DNA from: a virus
Taxonomy: Duplodnaviria; Heunggongvirae; Uroviricota; Caudoviricetes
IMG/VR virus record: IMGVR_UViG_2667528155_000012
DNA length: 7,076 bases
Reading direction: 5' to 3' (one strand)
Part shown: positions 1 through 7,076 of the stretch, one piece after another
Layout of the letters: each line of letters opens with the position of its first letter
How positions within the stretch are numbered: the stretch's first letter is position 1
Translations under genes and position numbers: made by a program
Notes under the pieces: model-generated
The model's database searches: none
What the model was told of the DNA's origin: nothing
Seen by the model: only the letters and a program-made list of their open reading frames with translations

Positions 1-417
1 GTAAAGTTCTGAAGCATCTCTTGGGGTTTCATGTGGATGCCGAGTATAACCAAGTATTTGTGGTATTAAATTACCATGCGATTGAACTACAGATTCATAT
101 TTCTTATAGCAAGCATTATCAAAAAATCTCATTCTTATGCTAAGTTCTCTGAGTTTGTCAACGTCTAGAGAAACTTGTTTGTTGGCAATAATTAAATCTC
201 CGCGGTTTAATGTATTCTTGTGTTGAAAAATCAGTAAAAGCCATTCTGTATTATTGTAAAGCTTTTCAAGATTGGCATGTATATCAAGTCCGAGTTTTTC
301 ATATGCGGATAATTTGACCTCTTTTTCCTTTGCAGAAAGAGAAGATGAATAAGCCAGTAATCCGCTTATTATGGCAACAATAAATGTTCCTATAATGGTT
401 AAGGTATTCGAGTCCAT
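1..417 (-). CDS. Hypothetical membrane-anchored protein, N-terminal 139 codons only (C-terminus beyond the window edge); AT-rich moron-like gene
   Basis: ATG at 417..415 on the minus strand, open to position 1 with no stop (not in the ORF track because it runs off the edge). Translation begins MDSNTLTIIGTFIVAIISGLLAYSSS..., i.e. one N-terminal hydrophobic helix then a hydrophilic domain. Composition is much more AT-rich than the adjacent lysis genes. I recognise no family. Confidence 0.5.
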   Translation of the reverse strand, partial: MDSNTLTIIGTFIVAIISGLLAYSSSLSAKEKEVKLSAYEKLGLDIHANLEKLYNNTEWLLLIFQHKNTLNRGDLIIANKQVSLDVDKLRELSIRMRFFDNACYKKYESVVQSHGNLIPQILGYTRHPHETPRDASELY

Positions 418-445
418 TGTATTCTTCAAAAGTTGGTCAAAAATA

Positions 446-474
446 TATTGTAATATTTTAATGTATAAAATCAA
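446..474 (-). promoter_or_regulatory. Candidate sigma70-type promoter for the 1..417 minus-strand gene
   Basis: On the minus strand: TTGATT (plus 474..469), 17-nt spacer, TACAAT (plus 451..446), about 30 nt upstream of the ATG at 417. Pattern match only. Confidence 0.25.
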
Positions 475-524
475 TCATTTCCCCTCATTCTGAGAGGACT
501 CACAGCAACAAAGAGGGGGGCTAA

Positions 525-911
525 ATGTCCGATCCGATTTCCGGTTCTGGGATGGCTGGTGGTGTCCTGACGGGGGCCAGCGTCTATGGATTTCTATCCG
601 GAACCGATTACGGCGTGGTGTTTGGCGCATTTGCCGGGGCTGTATTTTACATTGCAACCGCAGCGGATCTAAGTGCAGCGCGCCGACTGGCATATTTTCT
701 GGTGTCGTATATCGCGGGGATCCTTTGTTCCGGGCTGGTGGGTTCAAAGCTGGCTCAGGCTACCGGCTACAGTGATAAACCACTGGATGCCATTGGCGCC
801 GTAATCGTTTCTGCTTTAGCCGTCAAAATCCTGACATTCCTGAATAATCAGGATGTCGGCTCGCTGGTGGCGCTGATAACGCGCCGGGGAGGTTCAGGTG
901 GTACAAAATGA
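525..911 (+). CDS. Putative holin (128 aa, multi-TM, charged C-terminal tail)
   Basis: ATG at 525 preceded by SD AGAGGGGGG with a 5-nt spacer. Several hydrophobic helices (GVVFGAFAGAVFYIA, LAYFLVSYIAGILCSGLVG, AIGAVIVSALAVKILTFL) and a basic C-terminal tail (ITRRGGSGGTK). First gene of a translationally coupled operon ending in endolysin and spanins. Confidence 0.7.
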   Translation: MSDPISGSGMAGGVLTGASVYGFLSGTDYGVVFGAFAGAVFYIATAADLSAARRLAYFLVSYIAGILCSGLVGSKLAQATGYSDKPLDAIGAVIVSALAVKILTFLNNQDVGSLVALITRRGGSGGTK

Positions 912-1179
912 CCCATCGGCAACTTTTAATGCATTGCTTTGTGCTGGGGTAGTGTTAACCCTGATGTTTTACCGTCGCGGCGACTCGCGACATCGACCGT
1001 GGATATCTCGCTTAGCGTGGCTGCTTACGGTCATCTACAGCGCCGTTCCGCTGGCGTATCTGTGCGGTATTTACCCGTACTCATCATGGGCCACTATCGG
1101 GGCCAACTTTATTTTCCTGTCCGTGCTGGTCGCCGTAAGAGGCAACGTGGCACGTCTGGTTGATCATCTGAGGCACTAA
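898..1179 (+). CDS. Second small membrane protein of the lysis cassette (holin partner or antiholin-like), 93 aa, GTG start
   Basis: GTG at 898 preceded by GGGGAGG (886-892) with a 5-nt spacer. Overlaps the holin stop (909-911), and its TAA overlaps the endolysin ATG (taATG at 1177-1181). Hydrophobic segments FNALLCAGVVLTLMFY, LAWLLTVIYSAVPLAYLCGIY, IGANFIFLSVLVAV. Function inferred from position and topology only. Confidence 0.55.
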   Translation: MVQNDPSATFNALLCAGVVLTLMFYRRGDSRHRPWISRLAWLLTVIYSAVPLAYLCGIYPYSSWATIGANFIFLSVLVAVRGNVARLVDHLRH

Positions 1180-1793
1180 TGAACCAATCACAATTTCAGC
1201 AGGCGGCTGGTATCAGCGCCGGGCTTTCTGCGCGCTGGTTTCCGCACATTGACGCGGCAATGAAAGAGTTTGGCATTACAGCTACGAACGATCTGGCTAT
1301 GTTCATCGCCCAGGTTGGGCATGAGTCTGCTGGCTTTACCTCGCTGGTGGAAAGCTTCAACTACTCGGTAGAGGGGCTGAAGAAAACCTTTGGTAAACGG
1401 CTTACTCCTTATCAGTGTGAAATGCTGGGTCGTGTCGATGGTAAGCAGGTGGCCCACCAGCCGCAAATAGCCAATCTGGTTTATGGTGACCGCATGGGGA
1501 ATAACAGCCAGGGTGACGGCTGGAAATATCGCGGTCGCGGCCTGCTGCAAATCACGGGTCGTGAGAACTACACCAAATGCGGCACGGCGCTGAAACTTGA
1601 CCTTATCAGTACGCCAGAATTGCTAACGCAAGAGCGACATGCGGCTCGTTCGGCTGCGTGGTACTTCACGTTACGCGGTTGCCTGATGTATTCGGGTGAC
1701 GTGGCACGCGTTACGCAGATTATTAACGGCGGACAGAACGGCATTAAAGACCGCCGTGAACGTTACGCCAAAGCTAAAGCTGCACTGGTGTGA
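1179..1793 (+). CDS. Phage endolysin, glycoside hydrolase family 19 (chitinase-like lysozyme), 204 aa
   Basis: Translation contains KEFGITATNDLAMFIAQVGHESAGFTSLVE, the hallmark region of GH19-type phage endolysins with the catalytic Glu in HES, plus downstream GWKYRGRGLLQITGRENY. SD GAGG 5 nt upstream; sits between holin genes and spanins. Confidence 0.9.
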   Translation: MNQSQFQQAAGISAGLSARWFPHIDAAMKEFGITATNDLAMFIAQVGHESAGFTSLVESFNYSVEGLKKTFGKRLTPYQCEMLGRVDGKQVAHQPQIANLVYGDRMGNNSQGDGWKYRGRGLLQITGRENYTKCGTALKLDLISTPELLTQERHAARSAAWYFTLRGCLMYSGDVARVTQIINGGQNGIKDRRERYAKAKAALV

Positions 1794-1800
1794 GGTCAGT

Positions 1801-2070
1801 ATGGGGCTTGAAATGATTATCGGCCTGGTTGTTGCTGTGCTGGCTGCAATTGCAGGTGCTTTTGGGCTGGGCAAATCACGCGGTACCAGTATCGCTGAAA
1901 CAAAAGCGGACCAACAACGCACTGAAGAACGTGCAATAGCTATTGAAGCGGTTGCAGAACGCCGGGTAGAAACAACAAAAGGAGCCAGGGATGTACAACA
2001 GACTGTTAACCATATGCCTGATGACGCTGCTGATCGCGAGCTGCGCAAAAACTGGACACGTAAGGATTGA
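1801..2070 (+). CDS. Inner-membrane spanin subunit (Rz-like i-spanin), about 89 aa
   Basis: ATG at 1801 with GAGG upstream, 8 nt after the endolysin stop. N-terminal TM helix MGLEMIIGLVVAVLAAIAGAFGL followed by a charged, helical periplasmic domain. The ORF-track start at 1696 lies inside the endolysin gene and is rejected. Unusually short for an Rz protein. Confidence 0.7.
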   Translation: MGLEMIIGLVVAVLAAIAGAFGLGKSRGTSIAETKADQQRTEERAIAIEAVAERRVETTKGARDVQQTVNHMPDDAADRELRKNWTRKD

Positions 2071-2212
2071 GGTTATTGACACCGGCTGCGATTGGGTAAA
2101 ACCCATCTACGGCACTGCTCATGATTGGGAAGTGCTGGACAGGCAGACCAAGAAAGACATTCTTATGCATAACAAAGTGTGGATGTCAAACTGTGGCTCT
2201 ATAACTTATTGA
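1991..2212 (+). CDS. Outer-membrane spanin subunit (Rz1-like lipoprotein o-spanin), 73 aa
   Basis: ATG at 1991 with GGAG 6 nt upstream. Lipoprotein signal MYNRLLTICLMTLLIASC with lipobox IASC. Starts in a different frame inside the 3' end of the i-spanin gene and extends beyond it, the classic overlapped spanin architecture. Confidence 0.7.
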   Translation: MYNRLLTICLMTLLIASCAKTGHVRIEVIDTGCDWVKPIYGTAHDWEVLDRQTKKDILMHNKVWMSNCGSITY

Positions 2213-2862
2213 TTTTGTTTTTTGTTGTCTACCATATCAGGCAATGTGAAGGCATATAGAAGAAATACTTCGGTGAAACCAATCATTTCTTGAGCATCTT
2301 CTTTTGAAAATTCTTCATCAGAATGAACTGCTCCATTGGAATCGATTCGAACTATATGTGCCCATTCCCTCATTTGATCTGTAATCAGTCCCTTAGCATG
2401 CAACATAGAAATCCGTTTAACCAATTTTTCATCTTTTGAGTCATTTCCCAGTAACTCCCGTGTAGCAATGTCCAAGACTTTACGGCAAAGCATAACGGAT
2501 GTGTCGAAACGACAGCGCCCTAAGTTGTCTTTTGCTTCTATGAAAGCCATAGCAGCACGTGGCGGAGTGTGTTCGGGGGCGTTAAGGAGGGTGGGTTTCG
2601 GGATGATATCAATCAACTGGTACTCAGTATTTCCAGGAATGATTACGTTTACATCATTATTTTGCCTAGATTTTGCACGAGGTAAATAACCACCGGGATT
2701 ATTCATTTTTACAATAGCAATACCTGATTGAAAACAGCTTCGACAACAAAATGCAATATTAACTAAAGGCCCGGCGTTGATACGCAGTTCTGCCCATCCT
2801 TCAAGGACAGCATTTTCCCTCAGACAATGTGGGCAAGTGATATCGAAAGTGAGAATTCCCAT
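2206..2862 (-). CDS. Zinc-ribbon protein with a C-terminal DUF4145/HEPN-like domain (218 aa); candidate defence or abortive-infection effector
   Basis: ATG at 2862..2860 with GGAG 7 nt upstream on the minus strand; the ORF-track TTG start at 2907 is less likely. N-terminus has CPHC ... CCRSC (Cys-x2-Cys ... Cys-Cys-x2-Cys), typical of a zinc ribbon. C-terminus (VMLCRKVLDIATRELLG ... LITDQMREWAHIVRIDSNGAVH ... EDAQEMIGFTEVFLLYAFTLP) matches my recollection of the DUF4145 pattern with an R-x7-H motif. AT-rich, convergent with the spanin gene. Confidence 0.7.
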   Translation of the reverse strand: MGILTFDITCPHCLRENAVLEGWAELRINAGPLVNIAFCCRSCFQSGIAIVKMNNPGGYLPRAKSRQNNDVNVIIPGNTEYQLIDIIPKPTLLNAPEHTPPRAAMAFIEAKDNLGRCRFDTSVMLCRKVLDIATRELLGNDSKDEKLVKRISMLHAKGLITDQMREWAHIVRIDSNGAVHSDEEFSKEDAQEMIGFTEVFLLYAFTLPDMVDNKKQNQ

Positions 2863-3046
2863 GACTCTACTCCATACATTAAAAGAAATTGAAAATGAAT
2901 TACACAATGCACAACGACCTGAGTCTACACTCCTTCAACGATATGAAGTATCGAATGAGATTAAAAAAAAGGAGTTTGTAGTCGCTTTGATCGGTAAACT
3001 GATAGAATTGGACCGCCGTCTCTATGTCACATCATTGAAGCCTTAG
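2861..3046 (+). CDS. Hypothetical small protein (61 aa), divergent from the zinc-ribbon gene; uncertain
   Basis: ATG at 2861 reads MTLLHTLKEIENELHNAQRPESTLLQRYEVSNEIKKKEFVVALIGKLIELDRRLYVTSLKP, a predicted helical peptide. Only a weak SD (GTGAG), and the same DNA must also carry the promoter of the minus-strand gene, so coding status is doubtful. Confidence 0.25.
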   Translation: MTLLHTLKEIENELHNAQRPESTLLQRYEVSNEIKKKEFVVALIGKLIELDRRLYVTSLKP

Positions 3047-3415
3047 TTTCAATTTTACCGATTTATCGCTTAAGGGGTAGGACTTCAACACTACTAAGTG
3101 AGCATTGCAGCAGGCATTCAGGGGAATGCTGTGACAGTAGTTAGCTAGGGTAAACCGTTTGCGCCTGGGGATTTTACTTTGCGACGGAAAATTAAAAAAC
3201 TATATGATTTCTTATCCCACTAGGATGTCTGCGGACTACTACTGACTGTTTAGGCTATTACGAGGGGCTCAAACTCAACGTCTGGCATCAACGCAGAACT
3301 GAAAAAGTCGCCATGAATGTGGTTACGGTATTTGGTGGGATATAAACGTACCTTCATTTCTAAGCTTGATAATCACCTTTGTCCGAATTGCCTACGCGAT
3401 AGTCATGTAGTTTTA

Positions 3416-3445
3416 GTCATAACCGTTTACCCTATTGATGTCAAG
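3416..3445 (-). promoter_or_regulatory. Candidate minus-strand sigma70-like promoter inside the ORF-poor gap
   Basis: Minus strand: perfect -35 TTGACA (plus 3445..3440), 18-nt spacer, -10 TATGAC (plus 3421..3416). It would drive leftward transcription across 3409..3047 towards the zinc-ribbon gene. Pattern match only. Confidence 0.25.
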
Positions 3446-3542
3446 ATAAATTGGATAACACTGATGAATCGAACCTCTAAATCCTTTGATGGGCCACTCA
3501 TAGCTGACTGGTTCAAAAAAGTGTTATCAATGGTATGATAAG

Positions 3543-3572
3543 TTGAGATGAAAGGTGTAAATGAACTATAAT
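3543..3572 (+). promoter_or_regulatory. Candidate sigma70 promoter of the AT-rich two-gene operon
   Basis: TTGAGA (3543-3548), 18-nt spacer, consensus TATAAT (3567-3572), about 35 nt upstream of the ATG at 3608. Confidence 0.3.
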
Positions 3573-3607
3573 AATTCAACAGTTAATCTGAGAAAAATGG
3601 ATTATGT

Positions 3608-3877
3608 ATGTCGAATGTAAAAAAAATAGATGCTATAGTTCAAAATTTATTTGAATTCAGAGATGCTACAGGTGAACTTACGGATAAAAATATTGTTTTA
3701 ATACAAAAAATCATAACGAACTTACCTGACTATGCTGGTAAGGATCCATATGAATTTTATTCATCATTTTCTGAAGATATTAATGAGTCGCTCAAAGCAA
3801 TTGCCAATTATCATAAGGCACATGCTAAATACATTAATGCCCTCGATAAATTAGCAGAGCTTAGGTCGGAGGGGTAA
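3608..3877 (+). CDS. Hypothetical small acidic helical protein (89 aa), first gene of a two-gene accessory operon
   Basis: ATG at 3608, TAA at 3875-3877. Very AT-rich coding sequence; translation MSNVKKIDAIVQNLFEFRDATGELTDKNIVLIQKIITNLPDYAGKDPYEFY... has no TM segment and no motif I recognise. Its 3' end carries the SD of the next gene. Confidence 0.6.
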   Translation: MSNVKKIDAIVQNLFEFRDATGELTDKNIVLIQKIITNLPDYAGKDPYEFYSSFSEDINESLKAIANYHKAHAKYINALDKLAELRSEG

Positions 3878-3879
3878 TA

Positions 3880-4257
3880 ATGGCTACGGAAGATATTCAG
3901 GCTTTGTTATCTAAAGTTAATGCGTTAAGATTTGAAGATAAAAGAATAGAGAAGGAAACAGGAGAGATTGAAAATGAAATTCAGGCTCAATTTCTTCGTG
4001 ATGGTAAAACAAGGAGTACATTAACCATAACATTTATGAGAGGCTTTTTTGGTCTTATCGTTTTTTCTTTTATATTTGTGATAGTTTATAACTATTGCGC
4101 AGTGCAATGGGTACTTCAATTACAAAGCAAAGGGCTCATGGAGGCTTCTAAAAGTATCGCACTACTTGAGTTAGATAAGGTGTTATCTATTATGGTTAGT
4201 GCGTTAGGAACATCTCTTGGGTTTATAATTGGCTATTATTTTAAAGACAAAAAATAA
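3880..4257 (+). CDS. Hypothetical membrane protein (125 aa): N-terminal coiled-coil-like region plus two C-terminal TM helices; second gene of the operon
   Basis: ATG at 3880 with GGAGG (3868-3872) and a 7-nt spacer, 2 nt after the upstream stop. Charged N-terminal ~50 aa, then FFGLIVFSFIFVIVYNYCAVQWVL and LSIMVSALGTSLGFIIGYYF hydrophobic helices. Followed by a strong intrinsic terminator. Confidence 0.65.
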   Translation: MATEDIQALLSKVNALRFEDKRIEKETGEIENEIQAQFLRDGKTRSTLTITFMRGFFGLIVFSFIFVIVYNYCAVQWVLQLQSKGLMEASKSIALLELDKVLSIMVSALGTSLGFIIGYYFKDKK

Positions 4258-4330
4258 ATAATTTAATTTTACATTGCTATTTATGTTTTGCTTTTAAGAT
4301 TTTTAACTTTCTAGATGTAGAGTTATTGTT

Positions 4331-4360
4331 AAAGCACTGGTATTTGCCAGTGCTTTTTTA
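4331..4360 (+). terminator. Rho-independent terminator of the two-gene operon
   Basis: Perfect 8-bp stem AGCACTGG (4333-4340) / CCAGTGCT (4347-4354), loop TATTTG, then TTTTTTATT. Lies 76 nt after the stop at 4257. Confidence 0.6.
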
Positions 4361-4364
4361 TTAA

Positions 4365-4376
4365 AATCCGCGGATT
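4365..4376. repeat. Perfect 12-bp palindrome AATCCGCGGATT right after the terminator
   Basis: Read directly: aatccgcggatt is its own reverse complement. Possible dimeric protein-binding site; function unknown. Confidence 0.4.
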
Positions 4377-4764
4377 AATGACGGCAATCATGAATACTCC
4401 TCCAAAGACTGATCCAACGATACGGGTGTATAAGTCACACTTGTTTAATCTGTGATTGATGGCACTATAATTTATGTTGCACAACATAAACTGCCGATGG
4501 AGGGAATTGAGTGCTGAGCATGTCAGACATAAGTGTGTTGTCGAAGGTCTCCTCAGGCATGGTTTCTGCATAACGTCGACACTTGAAAGCCTCCATAATG
4601 ACAATAAAGTATAAGTATTATCATTATTAATTGTCACTTGCCGTTGCGACATGCTTGGGCGGCGACCGCCTAAGTTCTCTTTATAAATGAGAAGTTCCCG
4701 CTAGCGACCGTTTCTGATTCCTTTTTTTCTACTAAGTTTGTATCAAATAAACAGGATAATGCCG

Positions 4765-5127
4765 ATGCCAGCACGAGCAAAGCGTCCATGCCGGCACAAG
4801 GGCTGTGCGGCAGTTACCAACGATGCCAGTGGCTATTGTGATCAACACCGACAGCGGCATGCTGGTGATGGCTGGCGTAACTACCAGGCAGGAAAGAGCA
4901 GGCAGGAACGTGGATATGGGCGGACCTGGGAAATTAAACGGGTGCGTATCCTTCAGCGTGATAAGTACCTGTGTCAGAACCATCGCCGGCAGAAGATTGC
5001 AAAAAAGGCGACCAGCGTTGACCACATCATTCCAAAAGCTCATGGCGGTACTGATGACGATTTCAATCTTGAGTCGTTGTGCTGGGACTGCCACAGAGCG
5101 AAGACGGCAAGAGAGCGTATCCGATGA
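4765..5127 (+). CDS. Phage-associated HNH endonuclease (about 121 aa from ATG 4765)
   Basis: C-terminal HNH signature DHIIPKAHGGTDDDFNLESLCWDCH and an N-terminal Cys/His cluster (CRHKGC ... CDQH). AGGA (4753-4756) is 8 nt upstream of ATG 4765; alternative starts are ATG 4759 and TTG 4738. An HNH gene just upstream of terS is typical of HK97-like cos phages. Confidence 0.85.
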   Translation: MPARAKRPCRHKGCAAVTNDASGYCDQHRQRHAGDGWRNYQAGKSRQERGYGRTWEIKRVRILQRDKYLCQNHRRQKIAKKATSVDHIIPKAHGGTDDDFNLESLCWDCHRAKTARERIR

Positions 5128-5461
5128 GTTAGACCCATTGCACATATTTTGGTTCACGGCTCTATACAATAGCTAACTGCCCAAAATAATGGGGTGGTTC
5201 ATCGCGCCGCGCCAACCTGCACTGCAGCTATTGTGGGCAGTCAGGGCATAACTCTAGTGCCTGTCCACATAATGAGAGCTGCGGTCGTCGGCGCAGCCTG
5301 AATGATGACTTCCATCTTGATTGATGCCCACACAGGCCAGGGGAAGGGGGGATCAAATCCCTGACCCCTTTCGCCTTCCAGGACTGCCGCCTGAAGGACA
5401 TTTTTGCACGTCATAAATAAGGATCTTTTTTCCGGTAGGTTTCACCTATTAAAGAGGAGTT
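5128..5461. other. Candidate cos / packaging-initiation region between HNH and the small terminase
   Basis: 334-bp non-coding gap at the position where HK97-like phages carry cos. Contains a GC-rich purine run with an imperfect hairpin (about 5341-5368) and a second stem-loop at 5374-5397. The cleavage site itself cannot be determined from sequence. Confidence 0.3.
5374..5405 (+). terminator. Terminator-like stem-loop plus T-run upstream of terS (possible terminator, attenuator or terminase-binding structure)
   Basis: CCTTC(C)AGG (5374-5382) pairs with CCTGAAGG (5390-5397) with a 1-nt bulge and a 7-nt loop, followed by ACATTTTT (5398-5405). Confidence 0.3.
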
Positions 5462-5896
5462 ATGGCTGGTGGAATTCGATCGTCTGGAGGGGGGAGAAAA
5501 CCCATCTTACCCGCCGGACAAAAAAGTAAATTAACCCGAATTGCACCTCCTGCAGAGTTAATGGGGGAGGCTGCAATAAGACTGTGGAAAACCCAAAGTA
5601 AAATTCTGATCGAAAGAGGCGTGTTTGAACTGGAGGATGCGCCCCTGCTTGTGGCTTACTGCAATGCCTTCCATTTAATGCTTGAAGCTGAAAAATTGCT
5701 CTCGTCAAGCCTGACGACCGAAAGTGAAATGGGGGGATTAAAGAAACATCCCGCCGTTAACATCAGAAATGATTCAGTTTCCCAGATAGCCCGTCTTGGT
5801 TCGCTTCTGGGGTTGGATCCGCTCAGCCGAATTCGGATGCGTGGCGGTGGAAATGATCCTGACGACGACGGGAATGAATTTGATGAGTTTGACTGA
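5462..5896 (+). CDS. terS: Terminase small subunit, P27 family (144 aa)
   Basis: ATG at 5462 after AAGAGGAG. Translation has the family's characteristic N-terminal GGGRKP motif, a central LVAYCNAFHLMLEAEK, a C-terminal LGLDPLSRIRMRGG and an acidic tail. Its stop overlaps the next start (tgATGg). Confidence 0.85.
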   Translation: MAGGIRSSGGGRKPILPAGQKSKLTRIAPPAELMGEAAIRLWKTQSKILIERGVFELEDAPLLVAYCNAFHLMLEAEKLLSSSLTTESEMGGLKKHPAVNIRNDSVSQIARLGSLLGLDPLSRIRMRGGGNDPDDDGNEFDEFD

Positions 5897-7076
5897 TGGC
5901 TACATATCCGAACGTCAATGCAGCGAACCAGTATGCAAGAGATGTTGTTGGCGGGAAGATCCTTGCTTGTCAGTTAACTGTGCTTGCCTGTCAAAGACAC
6001 CTTGATGATTTGGAACGTGCGAAGGATCCTGCCTGGCCTTACCGGTTTGATAAAAACAAGGCCGAGCGATTTTTGCGCTTTGCTCAGAAGATGCCTCATA
6101 CGGCCGGTGAATGGGCCAGGAAGAAACTACGAATAGAATTTGAGCCCTGGCAAAAGTTTGCCCTTGGTGTGCCATTTGGATGGGTTAATAAGAAGTCCGG
6201 ATTCCGGCGTTTTTCTGAAATATATATTGAGGTGCCCAGGAAAAATGGGAAATCCGCAATTGCAGCTGCCGTTGGTAATTATATGTTTTGCGCCGATGGT
6301 GAACATGGTGCAGAAGTGTACTGTGGCGCCACTACTGAAAAACAAGCCTGGAAAGTCTTCTCTCCCGCTCTACAAATGGTAAAAAAACTCCCGGCATTGC
6401 GACAAAAATACTCAGTCAAACCCTGGGCGAAGAAAATGACCCGTCCGGATGGCTCTGTTTTTGCGCCAGTCATCGGCGATCCTGGTGACGGCGATTCCCC
6501 TTCATGTGCAATTATTGATGAATATCACGAGCATCAGACTGATGCACTTTATACAACGATGACTACCGGGATGGGGGCAAGGGAGCAGCCTGTTACTCTG
6601 ATTATTACTACAGCGGGTTATGACATTACTTCGCCCTGTTACGAGAAGCGTGTGCAGATAGTGGAAATTCTCCGCCGTAACCGGACAGGAGAAGAAAACG
6701 AGACAATATTTGGCATTATATACGGTCTGGATGACGATGATGACTGGACCAGGCCCGAAGCGCTGATTAAAGCAAATCCCAACTTTGGTGTTTCTGTTAA
6801 AGAGCATTTTCTTCGGGCGAAGCAGTTACTGGGAATATCCAATCCCAGCCAGACTAACAAAATTCTGACCAAGCACTTTAACCGGTGGGTAAGTGCAAAA
6901 ACGGTTTTTTATGACCTGCAAAGATGGATGGCTGCTGCGGATAAAAACCTTAAATTATCTGCTGAAGGAAGTCTCAACGCTGAATACAGAATTTCTAATC
7001 TGGATGCAGATTTATCTTCACCGGACGCAGACTTGTCTATGATGTCGCGTCATACTATTTTTCAACACGTTGAAAT
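5896..7076 (+). CDS. terL: Terminase large subunit, N-terminal ~393 codons (continues past the window end)
   Basis: ATG at 5896 overlapping the terS stop; frame open to 7076, and no ORF-track entry exists because no stop is reached. Walker A-like VPRKNGKS and Walker B-like CAIIDEYHEH are present, consistent with the terminase ATPase domain. Confidence 0.9.
   Translation, partial: MATYPNVNAANQYARDVVGGKILACQLTVLACQRHLDDLERAKDPAWPYRFDKNKAERFLRFAQKMPHTAGEWARKKLRIEFEPWQKFALGVPFGWVNKKSGFRRFSEIYIEVPRKNGKSAIAAAVGNYMFCADGEHGAEVYCGATTEKQAWKVFSPALQMVKKLPALRQKYSVKPWAKKMTRPDGSVFAPVIGDPGDGDSPSCAIIDEYHEHQTDALYTTMTTGMGAREQPVTLIITTAGYDITSPCYEKRVQIVEILRRNRTGEENETIFGIIYGLDDDDDWTRPEALIKANPNFGVSVKEHFLRAKQLLGISNPSQTNKILTKHFNRWVSAKTVFYDLQRWMAAADKNLKLSAEGSLNAEYRISNLDADLSSPDADLSMMSRHTIFQHVE

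What the first reader, a model, noticed from the sequence alone, without database searches (positions are those of the whole stretch)
2206..4737. Compositionally distinct accessory island inserted between the lysis and packaging modules
By eye the block 2206-4737 is markedly more AT-rich than the lysis genes (525-2212) and the terminase genes (5462-7076). Its genes are on both strands, have their own promoters and terminator, and none is a recognisable phage core function. The location matches the variable slot after Rz/Rz1 and before cos in lambdoid phages, a known hotspot for morons and anti-phage systems.
Basis: partly seen in the sequence, partly recalled or inferred. Interest (0 to 1): 0.5.

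Follow-up and report, generated by a model that had tools for sequence, protein, structure and literature searches.

The report
Mosaic accessory-gene slot in a prophage
The AT-rich block between the lysis and DNA-packaging genes of this E. coli prophage is a real, variable cargo slot; it holds a probable anti-phage RNase gene with a small, tightly coupled partner gene, a decayed HNH gene, and an uncharacterised two-gene membrane cassette that recurs in many enterobacterial prophages.

Summary
Unbiased GC segmentation returns 2149-4758 (GC 0.373 against 0.510; LLR 59.6 against a shuffle maximum of 17.4). Homology to related prophages breaks at 2175/2176 and resumes at 4765. Relatives with the same lysis cassette and an HNH gene carry different cargo there.

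The block is a mosaic, not one insert:
- **2206-2862 (-):** a 218-aa Cys4 zinc-ribbon + DUF4145/HEPN protein with an invariant R-x3-N-x3-H motif. It has the architecture of the abortive-infection RNase RAZR (PD-T7-4), but only weak sequence similarity to it.
- **2861-3046 (+):** a conserved 61-aa gene. Its start codon overlaps the RNase start in a CATG in 55 of 55 loci that have it.
- **3199-3460 (+):** a frameshifted HNH pseudogene.
- **3608-4257 (+):** an 89-aa protein plus a 125-aa two-transmembrane protein, with a promoter-like site and a terminator. The pair is AT-rich in all 28 loci examined. It usually follows lysis genes of unrelated families.
- **4357-4764:** unexplained.

Function is inferred, not shown. 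The finding is an ordinary moron slot with moderately interesting cargo. In passing: terL is cut at 6961 and joined to E. coli fsr-ushA intergenic DNA.

The parts
2176..4764 (.). Variable cargo slot between the spanin genes and the HNH endonuclease gene. GC is 0.37 against about 0.51 in the flanks.
   Evidence: Homology to L051, L011 and L057 stops at 2175/2176 and resumes at 4765. GC change-point segmentation gives 2149-4758. Relatives carry different cargo here.
2206..2862 (-). Gene for a 218-aa zinc-ribbon + DUF4145/HEPN protein (RAZR-like; WP_044690700.1). It is antisense to the late operon, and its 3' end overlaps the Rz1 stop by 7 nt.
2861..3046 (+). Conserved 61-aa partner gene (phrog_8371), divergent from the HEPN gene and co-directional with the late operon.
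   Evidence: phrog_8371 E = 8e-6, and 1.5e-13 for a homologue. A homologue is present in 55 of 79 viral loci that carry the HEPN gene. Mean pairwise divergence at codon positions 1/2/3 is 0.377/0.309/0.547 over 34 unique sequences. Similarity to L082 and L083 ends at 3049-3052, right after its stop codon.
2860..2863 (.). CATG in which the two divergent start codons overlap by 2 nt.
   Evidence: Found in frame in 55 of 55 loci that have the partner gene. Seen directly in the sequence.
3199..3460 (+). Decayed HNH endonuclease pseudogene, with an in-frame stop and at least one frameshift.
   Evidence: blastx/tblastn against the HNH of L057: residues 1-41 and 43-93 align colinearly in two frames, E = 9e-9 for the pair of segments. 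DNA similarity of 68% to the L057 HNH gene.
3543..3572 (+). Sigma-70-like promoter (TTGAGA-18-TATAAT, 11 of 12), 35 nt upstream of the 89-aa gene.
   Evidence: Consensus scan. Promoter-like sites at a similar distance occur in many homologous cassettes. This is consensus-level evidence only.
3608..3877 (+). Gene for the 89-aa soluble, predicted helical partner of the membrane protein (phrog_21707). It evolves fast.
   Evidence: PHROG E = 5e-8. 29% identity, E = 4e-10, to the ORF in the same position in L014. Every complete homologous locus has such an upstream ORF. Only one true distant relative was found among 1.8 billion representatives.
3880..4257 (+). Gene for a 125-aa protein with a cytoplasmic helix and two transmembrane helices (phrog_20796). 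The C-terminal GTSLGFIIGYYFK motif is invariant.
   Evidence: phrog_20796 E = 4.5e-49. 132 homologues in Enterobacterales. Alignment A2. Hydropathy peaks at residues 47-79 and 100-119. AF2 model is all-helical, pLDDT 78. No Pfam, PADLOC or PDB fold match.
4331..4356 (+). Intrinsic terminator (11-bp stem plus T-run), 74 nt after the membrane-protein gene.
   Evidence: A terminator follows the homologous cassette in 21 of 28 loci.
4357..4764 (.). Spacer of unknown content, GC about 0.38-0.44, specific to this lineage.
   Evidence: No blastx, blastn, Rfam or PHROG match. A second terminator-like hairpin lies at 4653-4675.
1991..2212 (+). Left flank: the Rz1-type o-spanin gene. Its last 36 nt already belong to the variable segment.
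   Evidence: phrog_1275 E = 1.8e-28. Homology breakpoint at 2175/2176.
4765..5127 (+). Right flank: the intact HNH endonuclease gene of the HNH-terS-terL packaging module.
   Evidence: Pfam HNH E = 9e-13. 86.5% nt identity to L051, beginning exactly at 4765.

Best explanation
Window 2176-4764 is the cargo slot that lambdoid, HK97-type prophages keep between the spanin genes and the HNH-terminase packaging genes. In this lineage it has been filled stepwise.

Piece 1 (about 2176-3050) is a two-gene module.
- A minus-strand gene encodes a Cys4 zinc-ribbon + HEPN (DUF4145) protein.
- I infer that this protein is a prophage-expressed abortive-infection RNase of the RAZR/PD-T7-4 type. The variable zinc-ribbon half would recognise a protein of an incoming phage. 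The HEPN half (R172/N176/H180) would then cut RNA and stop translation.
- A 61-aa gene is read from the opposite strand, and its ATG shares two bases with the RNase ATG.
- The RNase gene lies antisense inside a phage operon, and the small gene points with that operon. I therefore propose, as a hypothesis, that operon read-through after induction both opposes RNase expression and produces the small protein, which would act as regulator or inhibitor.

Piece 2 (3199-3460) is the wreck of an earlier HNH gene. It marks where packaging genes once began.

Piece 3 (about 3540-4360) is a self-contained moron: promoter-like site, an 89-aa soluble protein, a 125-aa two-transmembrane protein, and a terminator. 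It recurs at this position in many enterobacterial prophages. I infer a lysogen-expressed membrane function such as exclusion of, or abortive response to, superinfecting phage.

What is shown: composition, boundaries, slot variability, domain architecture, conserved motifs, gene pairing, and the CATG overlap. What is inferred: every biochemical activity and the regulatory model.
For: Slot.
- GC segmentation and z-test.
- Homology breakpoints at 2175/2176 and 4765.
- Different cargo in relatives L011, L051, L077, L078 and L082.
- No megablast match to the block in 5,426 complete E. coli genomes, although the lysis cassette matches at 80-90% in roughly 240 records.

RNase.
- Pfam DUF4145.
- Invariant Cys4 and R-x3-N-x3-H.
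- The zinc ribbon matches RPB9-type ribbons, as reported for RAZR.
- PD-T7-4 is the best PADLOC family.
- The R-x7-H spacing and protein length (218 against 219 aa) equal those of RAZR.
- The N-terminal half is more variable than the HEPN half: 48% and 27% against 68% pairwise identity. The RAZR paper reports that the zinc-finger domain is the most variable region and sets specificity.
- The gene is antisense to the flanking long ORFs on both sides in 59 of 77 distinct loci. It sits in at least four different slots: lysis-terS, replication-nin, Q-holin and Rz1-HNH.

Partner gene.

HNH pseudogene.

Pair.
- Conserved pairing.
- AT-rich in 28 of 28 loci, and followed by a terminator in 21 of 28.
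- It follows endolysins of four unrelated families and precedes terminases of three families.
- It also occurs between the tail chaperone and tape-measure genes in Proteus.
- It is absent from close relatives L011, L012, L077, L078 and L082.
Against: - Sequence similarity to RAZR itself is at noise level. The window protein scores E = 0.0023 against the PD-T7-4 model. The family profile scores E = 1.8 against PDB 9Y9C, and that hit was lost with a smaller profile. Homology beyond the shared HEPN and zinc-ribbon folds is therefore not established.
- RAZR is described as a one-gene system.
- No promoter for the RNase gene was found within 260 nt upstream in 34 unique loci.
- 24 of 79 loci lack the small gene, so it is not required by all family members.
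- PHROGs labels the family 'DNA binding protein'.
- The pair has no similarity to any known defence, exclusion or lysis protein. Its strong preference for the position right after lysis genes would also fit a lysis-related role.
- The prophage copy in the window appears defective (terL cut), so expression and selection here are unknown.
Confidence: 0.6

Rival explanations
1. The zinc-ribbon/HEPN gene and the 61-aa gene form a toxin-antitoxin (addiction) pair. Its main effect would be to stabilise the prophage in the chromosome rather than to defend against other phages.
For: HEPN domains are the toxins of HEPN-MNT systems, and these are among the best structural matches (7ae2, 5yep, 8xdj). A small conserved partner is rigidly coupled to the gene. 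The module persists in a prophage that appears defective.
Against: The partner has no nucleotidyltransferase or any other Pfam domain. The genes are divergent with overlapping starts, not co-transcribed as in type II systems. 24 of 79 loci carry the HEPN gene without the partner, which is hard to reconcile with an unneutralised constitutive toxin. The closest defence-family match is the single-gene abortive-infection protein PD-T7-4.
Confidence: 0.15
2. The 89-aa/125-aa pair is not lysogenic-conversion cargo. It would be an optional late-operon function of the phage itself, for example a regulator of lysis timing or of the membrane step of lysis.
For: It is co-directional with the late operon. 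In most of 26 distinct loci it directly follows a holin-endolysin-spanin cassette and precedes HNH/terminase. The membrane protein has a very strongly conserved transmembrane helix.
Against: It is absent from close relatives with the same lysis cassette: L011, L077, L078 and L082. It combines with at least four unrelated endolysin families and several holin families. In Proteus prophages it sits between the tail chaperone and tape-measure genes. It is AT-rich against its flanks in 28 of 28 loci and carries its own terminator in 21 of 28. It has no PHROG or Pfam lysis annotation.
Confidence: 0.2
3. The block is largely decaying junk in a dead prophage. Its low GC would reflect relaxed selection and AT-biased mutation rather than acquired accessory genes.
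For: terL is truncated in the window. The block contains an HNH pseudogene and about 0.9 kb without recognisable genes.
Against: All four ORFs are intact. They have full-length homologues with conserved motifs across Enterobacterales. The small ORF shows a coding substitution pattern. The same block is 99-100% identical in carriers whose prophages have complete terL, portal and capsid genes. The homologous cassettes are AT-rich in apparently intact phages too.
Confidence: 0.03

Closest known systems
RAZR (ring-activated zinc-finger RNase; PD-T7-4), E. coli UMB1727; PDB 9Y9C/9Y6U; Nature 2026, PMC13017515
   Same: N-terminal Cys4 zinc ribbon of the RPB9 type, plus a C-terminal DUF4145/HEPN domain. 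The R-x7-H catalytic spacing matches (R146/H154 in RAZR, R172/H180 here). Length is nearly the same (219 against 218 aa). The zinc-finger half is more variable than the HEPN half. It is the best PADLOC match.
   Different: Sequence similarity is marginal (E = 0.0023 to the HMM, E = 1.8 to 9Y9C). Most members of this family carry a conserved divergent 61-aa partner gene with an overlapping start codon, whereas RAZR is described as a single gene. The segment between the two domains is the least conserved part here (27% pairwise identity), while the RAZR linker is reported as mostly conserved. Triggers, oligomeric state and activity are untested here.
DS-38 (HEPN + zinc-finger defence protein validated in E. 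coli; DefensePredictor preprint, 10.1101/2025.01.08.631726)
   Same: It is described as a HEPN plus zinc-finger protein that protects against phage, and whose zinc finger differs from that of PD-T7-4. This is the same relation the window protein has to PD-T7-4.
   Different: No sequence or accession was available in the held text. Identity with this family could not be tested.
Classical morons of lambdoid phages (lambda bor after Rz/Rz1; HK97 gp15 between the tail chaperone and tape-measure genes)
   Same: A promoter-gene-terminator unit of deviant composition, lying between genes that are adjacent in related phages. The slots used are the same: after Rz/Rz1, and between chaperone and tape measure in Proteus.
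   Different: There is no sequence similarity to HK97 gp15. The cassette here has two genes and no known function.
HEPN-MNT toxin-antitoxin systems (for example SO_3166/SO_3165, PDB 5YEP; 7AE2)
   Different: The partner is not a nucleotidyltransferase. The gene arrangement is divergent with overlapping start codons. An N-terminal zinc ribbon is present.
HepS, the Gifsy-1 prophage HEPN defence protein (PDB 9OIK)
   Different: The fold match is weaker, and no zinc ribbon was noted. The relation is only at the HEPN superfamily level.

Membership tests
RAZR / PD-T7-4 | N-terminal Cys4 zinc-ribbon domain | tested here: met
   C10, C13, C40 and C43 are invariant in 39 homologues. The profile matches RPB9-type ribbons at E about 0.05, and 1QYP is also listed. 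The model has a beta-strand N-terminal domain.
RAZR / PD-T7-4 | C-terminal DUF4145/HEPN domain with a catalytic R-x7-H | tested here: met
RAZR / PD-T7-4 | Significant sequence match to the family model or to RAZR itself | tested here: inconclusive
   PADLOC PD-T7-4: E = 0.0023 for the window protein; 16 of 39 relatives score <= 0.01, best 7e-6; the match covers the HEPN part only. PDB 9y9c_OA: E = 1.8 with the family profile, and not found with a smaller profile or by Foldseek.
RAZR / PD-T7-4 | Zinc-finger domain is the most variable region; HEPN is conserved | tested here: met
   Mean pairwise identity is 48% for the zinc-finger domain, 27% for the linker and 68% for HEPN.
RAZR / PD-T7-4 | Single-gene system | tested here: not met
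   A conserved 61-aa divergent partner gene is present in 55 of 79 loci, always with CATG start overlap. I could not examine whether RAZR loci have such an ORF.
RAZR / PD-T7-4 | Assembly around ring-shaped phage proteins (portal, Gp77); RNA cleavage; abortive infection | not testable with these tools
   Requires phage challenge, biochemistry and cryo-EM.
Moron (promoter-gene-terminator insert in a phage operon) | Lies between genes that are adjacent or nearly adjacent in related phages | tested here: met
   In L011 the gap from Rz1 to HNH is about 550 bp and holds one 76-aa ORF. In the Klebsiella phage L012 it is about 400 bp.
Moron (promoter-gene-terminator insert in a phage operon) | Own promoter and terminator | tested here: inconclusive
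   The pair has an 11-of-12 promoter-like site and a strong terminator. A terminator is present in 21 of 28 homologous cassettes. Neither was found for the HEPN gene. These are consensus scans only.
Moron (promoter-gene-terminator insert in a phage operon) | Nucleotide composition differs from the neighbours | tested here: met
HEPN-MNT toxin-antitoxin | Adjacent minimal nucleotidyltransferase antitoxin in the same operon | tested here: not met
   The neighbouring small protein has no Pfam hit and is divergently oriented.
HK97 gp15-type superinfection exclusion protein | Sequence similarity to gp15 | tested here: not met
   No BLASTP alignment with E <= 100.
Phage lysis proteins (holin, spanin or antiholin families) | Match of the 89-aa or 125-aa protein to a lysis family | tested here: not met
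   No Pfam hit. The PHROG families 21707 and 20796 are of unknown function.

The most novel reading that the evidence does not exclude
The block would carry two undescribed things.

First, a RAZR-like RNase clade whose activity is gated by a 61-aa protein encoded head-to-head, with the two ATGs sharing a CATG. Only transcription coming through the host phage's own operon, antisense to the RNase gene, could express the inhibitor. This would be a built-in switch that lets the prophage disarm its own abortive-infection gene when it enters lytic growth.

Second, a widespread two-gene system (soluble protein plus two-transmembrane protein) would be a new prophage-borne exclusion or abortive-infection system.
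Probability: 0.2. Interest if true: 0.7.

Novelty: new variant of a known kind. Interest (0 to 1): 0.5.

Why it matters
Prophage cargo slots are where many anti-phage systems have been found. This one gives three concrete, testable leads.

1. A clade of zinc-ribbon/HEPN proteins, distinct from RAZR, is present in at least 111 IMG/VR viral contigs and across Enterobacterales. Its different zinc ribbon may recognise other phage proteins.
2. Two divergent genes share a CATG at their start codons in all 55 loci that have both. This arrangement raises the question of how a prophage avoids triggering its own suicide RNase during induction.
3. A two-gene membrane cassette with an invariant transmembrane motif recurs after unrelated lysis cassettes and has no assigned function.

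None of this changes the general picture of morons. It adds candidates and a regulatory hypothesis.

Tried and rejected
- **Rfam and tRNA.** Rfam at E <= 1 and ARAGORN over the whole window found nothing.
- **DNA searches.** Megablast and blastn of the block against phage and E. coli collections gave only short hits to the three gene families.
- **Direct link to RAZR.** Single-sequence and small-profile searches of PDB sequences did not recover it. Foldseek ranked HEPN toxins first, but with E > 0.2. I could not obtain the RAZR or DS-38 sequences, because no supplementary files were held. No profile-profile or direct structural comparison with them was therefore possible.
- **HK97 gp15 as a relative of the 125-aa protein.** Rejected, no alignment.
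- **The 125-aa family.** Pfam, PADLOC and PDB fold searches gave only noise.
- **The 89-aa protein.** An exhaustive HMMER search found one short relative, plus coiled-coil noise.
- **The 4258-4764 spacer.** blastx and blastn against all fetched loci found nothing. The 107-aa minus-strand ORF there has no PHROG, Pfam or PADLOC hit.
- **A conserved promoter for the HEPN gene.** None was found inside the partner gene.
- **Cos site.** I considered that the cos site might lie in the block. In HK97-type genomes it lies between HNH and terS, which here is 5128-5461, outside the block. That position comes from established knowledge and was not tested.


Full report
**Map of the window**

- Pfam and PHROG scans identify two holins (525-911, 898-1179), a GH19 endolysin (1179-1793), and overlapping Rz/Rz1 spanins (1801-2070, 1991-2212).
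- After the block come an HNH endonuclease (4765-5127), a P27-type small terminase (5462-5896) and a large terminase that starts at 5896.
- The same 7 kb is 99-100% identical in E. coli and Citrobacter assemblies and in IMG/VR prophage contigs.
- In those carriers the region lies in a lambdoid, HK97-like prophage in the order Q antiterminator, lysis genes, this block, HNH, terminase, portal, capsid.

Yes.
- GC is 0.374 for 2206-4737, against 0.530 for the lysis genes and 0.486 for the packaging genes. GC3 is 0.24-0.33 against 0.37-0.58.
The LLR is 59.6. Two hundred 50-bp block shuffles gave 8.5 +/- 2.7, with a maximum of 17.4. The z-score against the flanks is -10.5.

**Is it a variable slot?**

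Yes.
- DNA similarity to prophages with the same lysis cassette ends at 2175/2176. That point is 36 nt before the Rz1 stop codon.
- Where an HNH homologue follows, similarity resumes exactly at 4765. The clearest case is L051, with 96% identity on the left and 86.5% on the right.
- Between these points the relatives carry different cargo:

| Locus | Cargo in the slot |
|---|---|
| E. coli DA33137 (L011) | one 76-aa ORF |
| L077 (CFSAN061769); hits with the same match span include APEC O78-type strains | minus-strand DUF6173 gene |
| L078 | minus-strand 133-aa gene |
| L051 | a divergent copy of the pair plus a 280-aa ORF |
| L082 | two glycosyltransferase-like ORFs |
| Klebsiella phage L012 | two tiny ORFs |

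- The block has no megablast match in 5,426 complete E. coli genomes. The lysis cassette matches at 80-90% in roughly 240 records.

**Piece 1: the zinc-ribbon/HEPN gene (2206-2862, minus strand)**

- The 218-aa product (WP_044690700.1) matches Pfam DUF4145 (E = 8e-11) and phrog_1305.
- In 39 homologues at 45-92% identity, four cysteines (C10, C13, C40, C43) and R172-x3-N176-x3-H180 are invariant.
- The AlphaFold model (pLDDT 86) has a beta-rich N-terminal domain and a helical C-terminal domain.
- DUF4145 was assigned to the HEPN superfamily, with zinc-ribbon fusions noted, by Anantharaman et al. 2013 (PMC3710099).
- The architecture is that of RAZR (formerly PD-T7-4). RAZR is a Cys4 zinc ribbon plus DUF4145/HEPN with catalytic R146 and H154. 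It oligomerises around phage portal or Gp77 rings, cleaves RNA and aborts infection (PMC13017515).
- The spacing of the catalytic residues and the protein length agree with RAZR. The family profile hits the same RPB9-type ribbons the paper used for comparison.
- The N-terminal half is the more variable half, as reported for RAZR.

Direct sequence similarity to RAZR is marginal.
- The PADLOC PD-T7-4 model gives E = 0.0023 for the window protein. Sixteen of 39 relatives score <= 0.01, the best at 7e-6, and the match covers the HEPN part only.
- PDB chain 9y9c_OA scores E = 1.8 against the family profile.
- I therefore call the protein RAZR-like in architecture and do not file it as a member of the RAZR family.
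- The preprint on DefensePredictor describes DS-38, a validated HEPN plus zinc-finger defence protein with a zinc finger unlike that of PD-T7-4. This could be the same family. It could not be checked.

**Piece 1, continued: a partner gene and an unusual arrangement**

- A 61-aa plus-strand ORF (2861-3046) begins inside the tetranucleotide CATG, which also holds the RNase start codon on the other strand.
- Homologues, with the motif RPExTLxQRYE...FVxALIGKLIExDR, sit in the same position next to RNase homologues in Yersinia, Providencia and Salmonella prophages.
- Among 79 IMG/VR loci with an RNase homologue, 55 have the small ORF. In all 55 the two start codons overlap in frame in CATG.
- Mean pairwise divergence at codon positions 1, 2 and 3 is 0.377, 0.309 and 0.547 over 34 unique sequences. 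That is a coding pattern.
- The ORF matches phrog_8371, a family of unknown function, and has no Pfam hit.
- The RNase gene is antisense to the long ORFs on both sides in 59 of 77 distinct loci.
- The module occupies at least four different slots: lysis-terS, replication-nin, Q-holin and Rz1-HNH.
- It is therefore a mobile module embedded backwards in phage operons, with the small gene pointing along the operon.
- Similarity of L082 and L083 to the window runs from 477 to about 3050 at 76-78% and stops right after the small ORF. This sets the right edge of the module. It also shows that its association with this lysis cassette is old.
- No consensus promoter for the RNase gene was found.
- The model in which operon read-through silences the RNase and expresses the small protein is inference from geometry alone.

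**Piece 2: an HNH pseudogene (3199-3460, plus strand)**

- Translated comparison with the HNH of L057 aligns residues 1-41 and 43-93 colinearly in two frames, with an internal stop (E = 9e-9 for the pair of segments).
- This explains the locally higher GC (0.42-0.44) and most of the 745-bp stretch that gene callers left empty.
- It implies that a packaging module once began here. The present pair-plus-HNH segment was joined downstream later.

**Piece 3: the 89-aa/125-aa pair (3608-4257, plus strand)**

- The 125-aa protein has 132 homologues in Enterobacterales.
- Its N-terminal cytoplasmic helix is variable. It has two hydrophobic helices and an invariant C-terminal GTSLGFIIGYYFK motif.
- The 89-aa protein evolves so fast that word-based and exhaustive searches find almost nothing. 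Even so, every complete locus has an ORF of typically 89-105 aa (up to 163 aa) ending at or overlapping the start of the membrane gene. The one in L014 aligns at 29% identity, E = 4e-10.
- In 28 loci the pair has GC 0.32-0.39, always below its flanks. In 21 of these a GC-rich hairpin with a T-run follows.
- In the window a TTGAGA-18-TATAAT site lies 35 nt upstream and the terminator lies 74 nt downstream.
- Pfam counts on the neighbours in 26 distinct loci:
  - Upstream: endolysins of four families in 17 loci, Rz-type spanins, and several holin families.
  - Downstream: HNH (10), small terminases of three families, and large terminases of three families.
  - A minority of loci are in tail or P2-like contexts.
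- Proteus prophages carry the pair between the tail chaperone and tape-measure genes.
- No Pfam, PADLOC or fold match exists, and HK97 gp15 is unrelated.
- The structure is that of a moron. The function is open. A lysis-accessory role remains a serious rival because of the positional preference.

**Piece 4: 4357-4764**

This stretch has no match to anything I searched and remains unexplained.

**Verdict**

The block is a stepwise mosaic rather than one insert. It contains a dead HNH gene. Only one cassette shows promoter and terminator signals.
- As a phenomenon it is ordinary, because morons after Rz/Rz1 are textbook.
- The cargo is moderately interesting: a RAZR-like clade with a CATG-coupled partner gene, and a widespread uncharacterised two-gene membrane cassette.

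Noticed in passing
window 6962-7076 (junction at 6961/6962): The last 115 bases are 99-100% identical to the fsr-ushA intergenic region of 5,420 of 5,426 complete E. coli genomes. The large terminase gene is cut at 6961, whereas every other carrier of this prophage segment continues with terL. The junction reads ...TATCTG|CTGAAGG.... This is either a deletion that left a defective prophage next to ushA, or a chimeric assembly.
   Followed up: partly
window 1-474 (continues upstream, see L001:4806-6595): A second AT-rich stretch (GC 0.32). It is the 5' part of a 239-aa minus-strand gene. Together with a 283-aa plus-strand gene it fills the slot between the Q antiterminator and the holin. Neither protein has a Pfam, PHROG or PADLOC hit. 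Relatives carry TIR or ThsB-TIR + caspase-like genes at that position (L014, L027).
   Followed up: partly
window 477-480: Every related prophage starts to align with the window at 477-480, just upstream of the first holin gene. This is a sharp module boundary of the lysis cassette.
   Followed up: no
window 2206-2212: The HEPN gene and Rz1 converge and overlap by 7 nt, with no terminator between them. A transcript of the HEPN gene would therefore run antisense into the spanin genes.
   Followed up: no
L139-L158 and L086-L089, L130 (viral loci): Two clades of the zinc-ribbon/HEPN family lack the 61-aa partner gene. One is Klebsiella-type at 45-48% identity and the other is at 60-63% identity. 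The partner is therefore clade-specific.
   Followed up: partly
L082:1318-3347 (minus strand): In a relative that shares the lysis cassette and the HEPN module, the rest of the slot holds two high-GC ORFs of 485 and 196 aa that look like glycosyltransferases. This reading is by eye, from the sequence only.
   Followed up: no
window 4653-4675: A second terminator-like hairpin (10-bp stem, 6 GC pairs) lies about 90 nt upstream of the HNH start codon, in the unexplained spacer.
   Followed up: no
L007 (GCA_015942485.1): One carrier keeps window 479-5388 at 96% identity but has a different early region and a different small terminase (165 aa). The lysis-cargo-HNH segment therefore moves as a block between phage backbones.
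   Followed up: no
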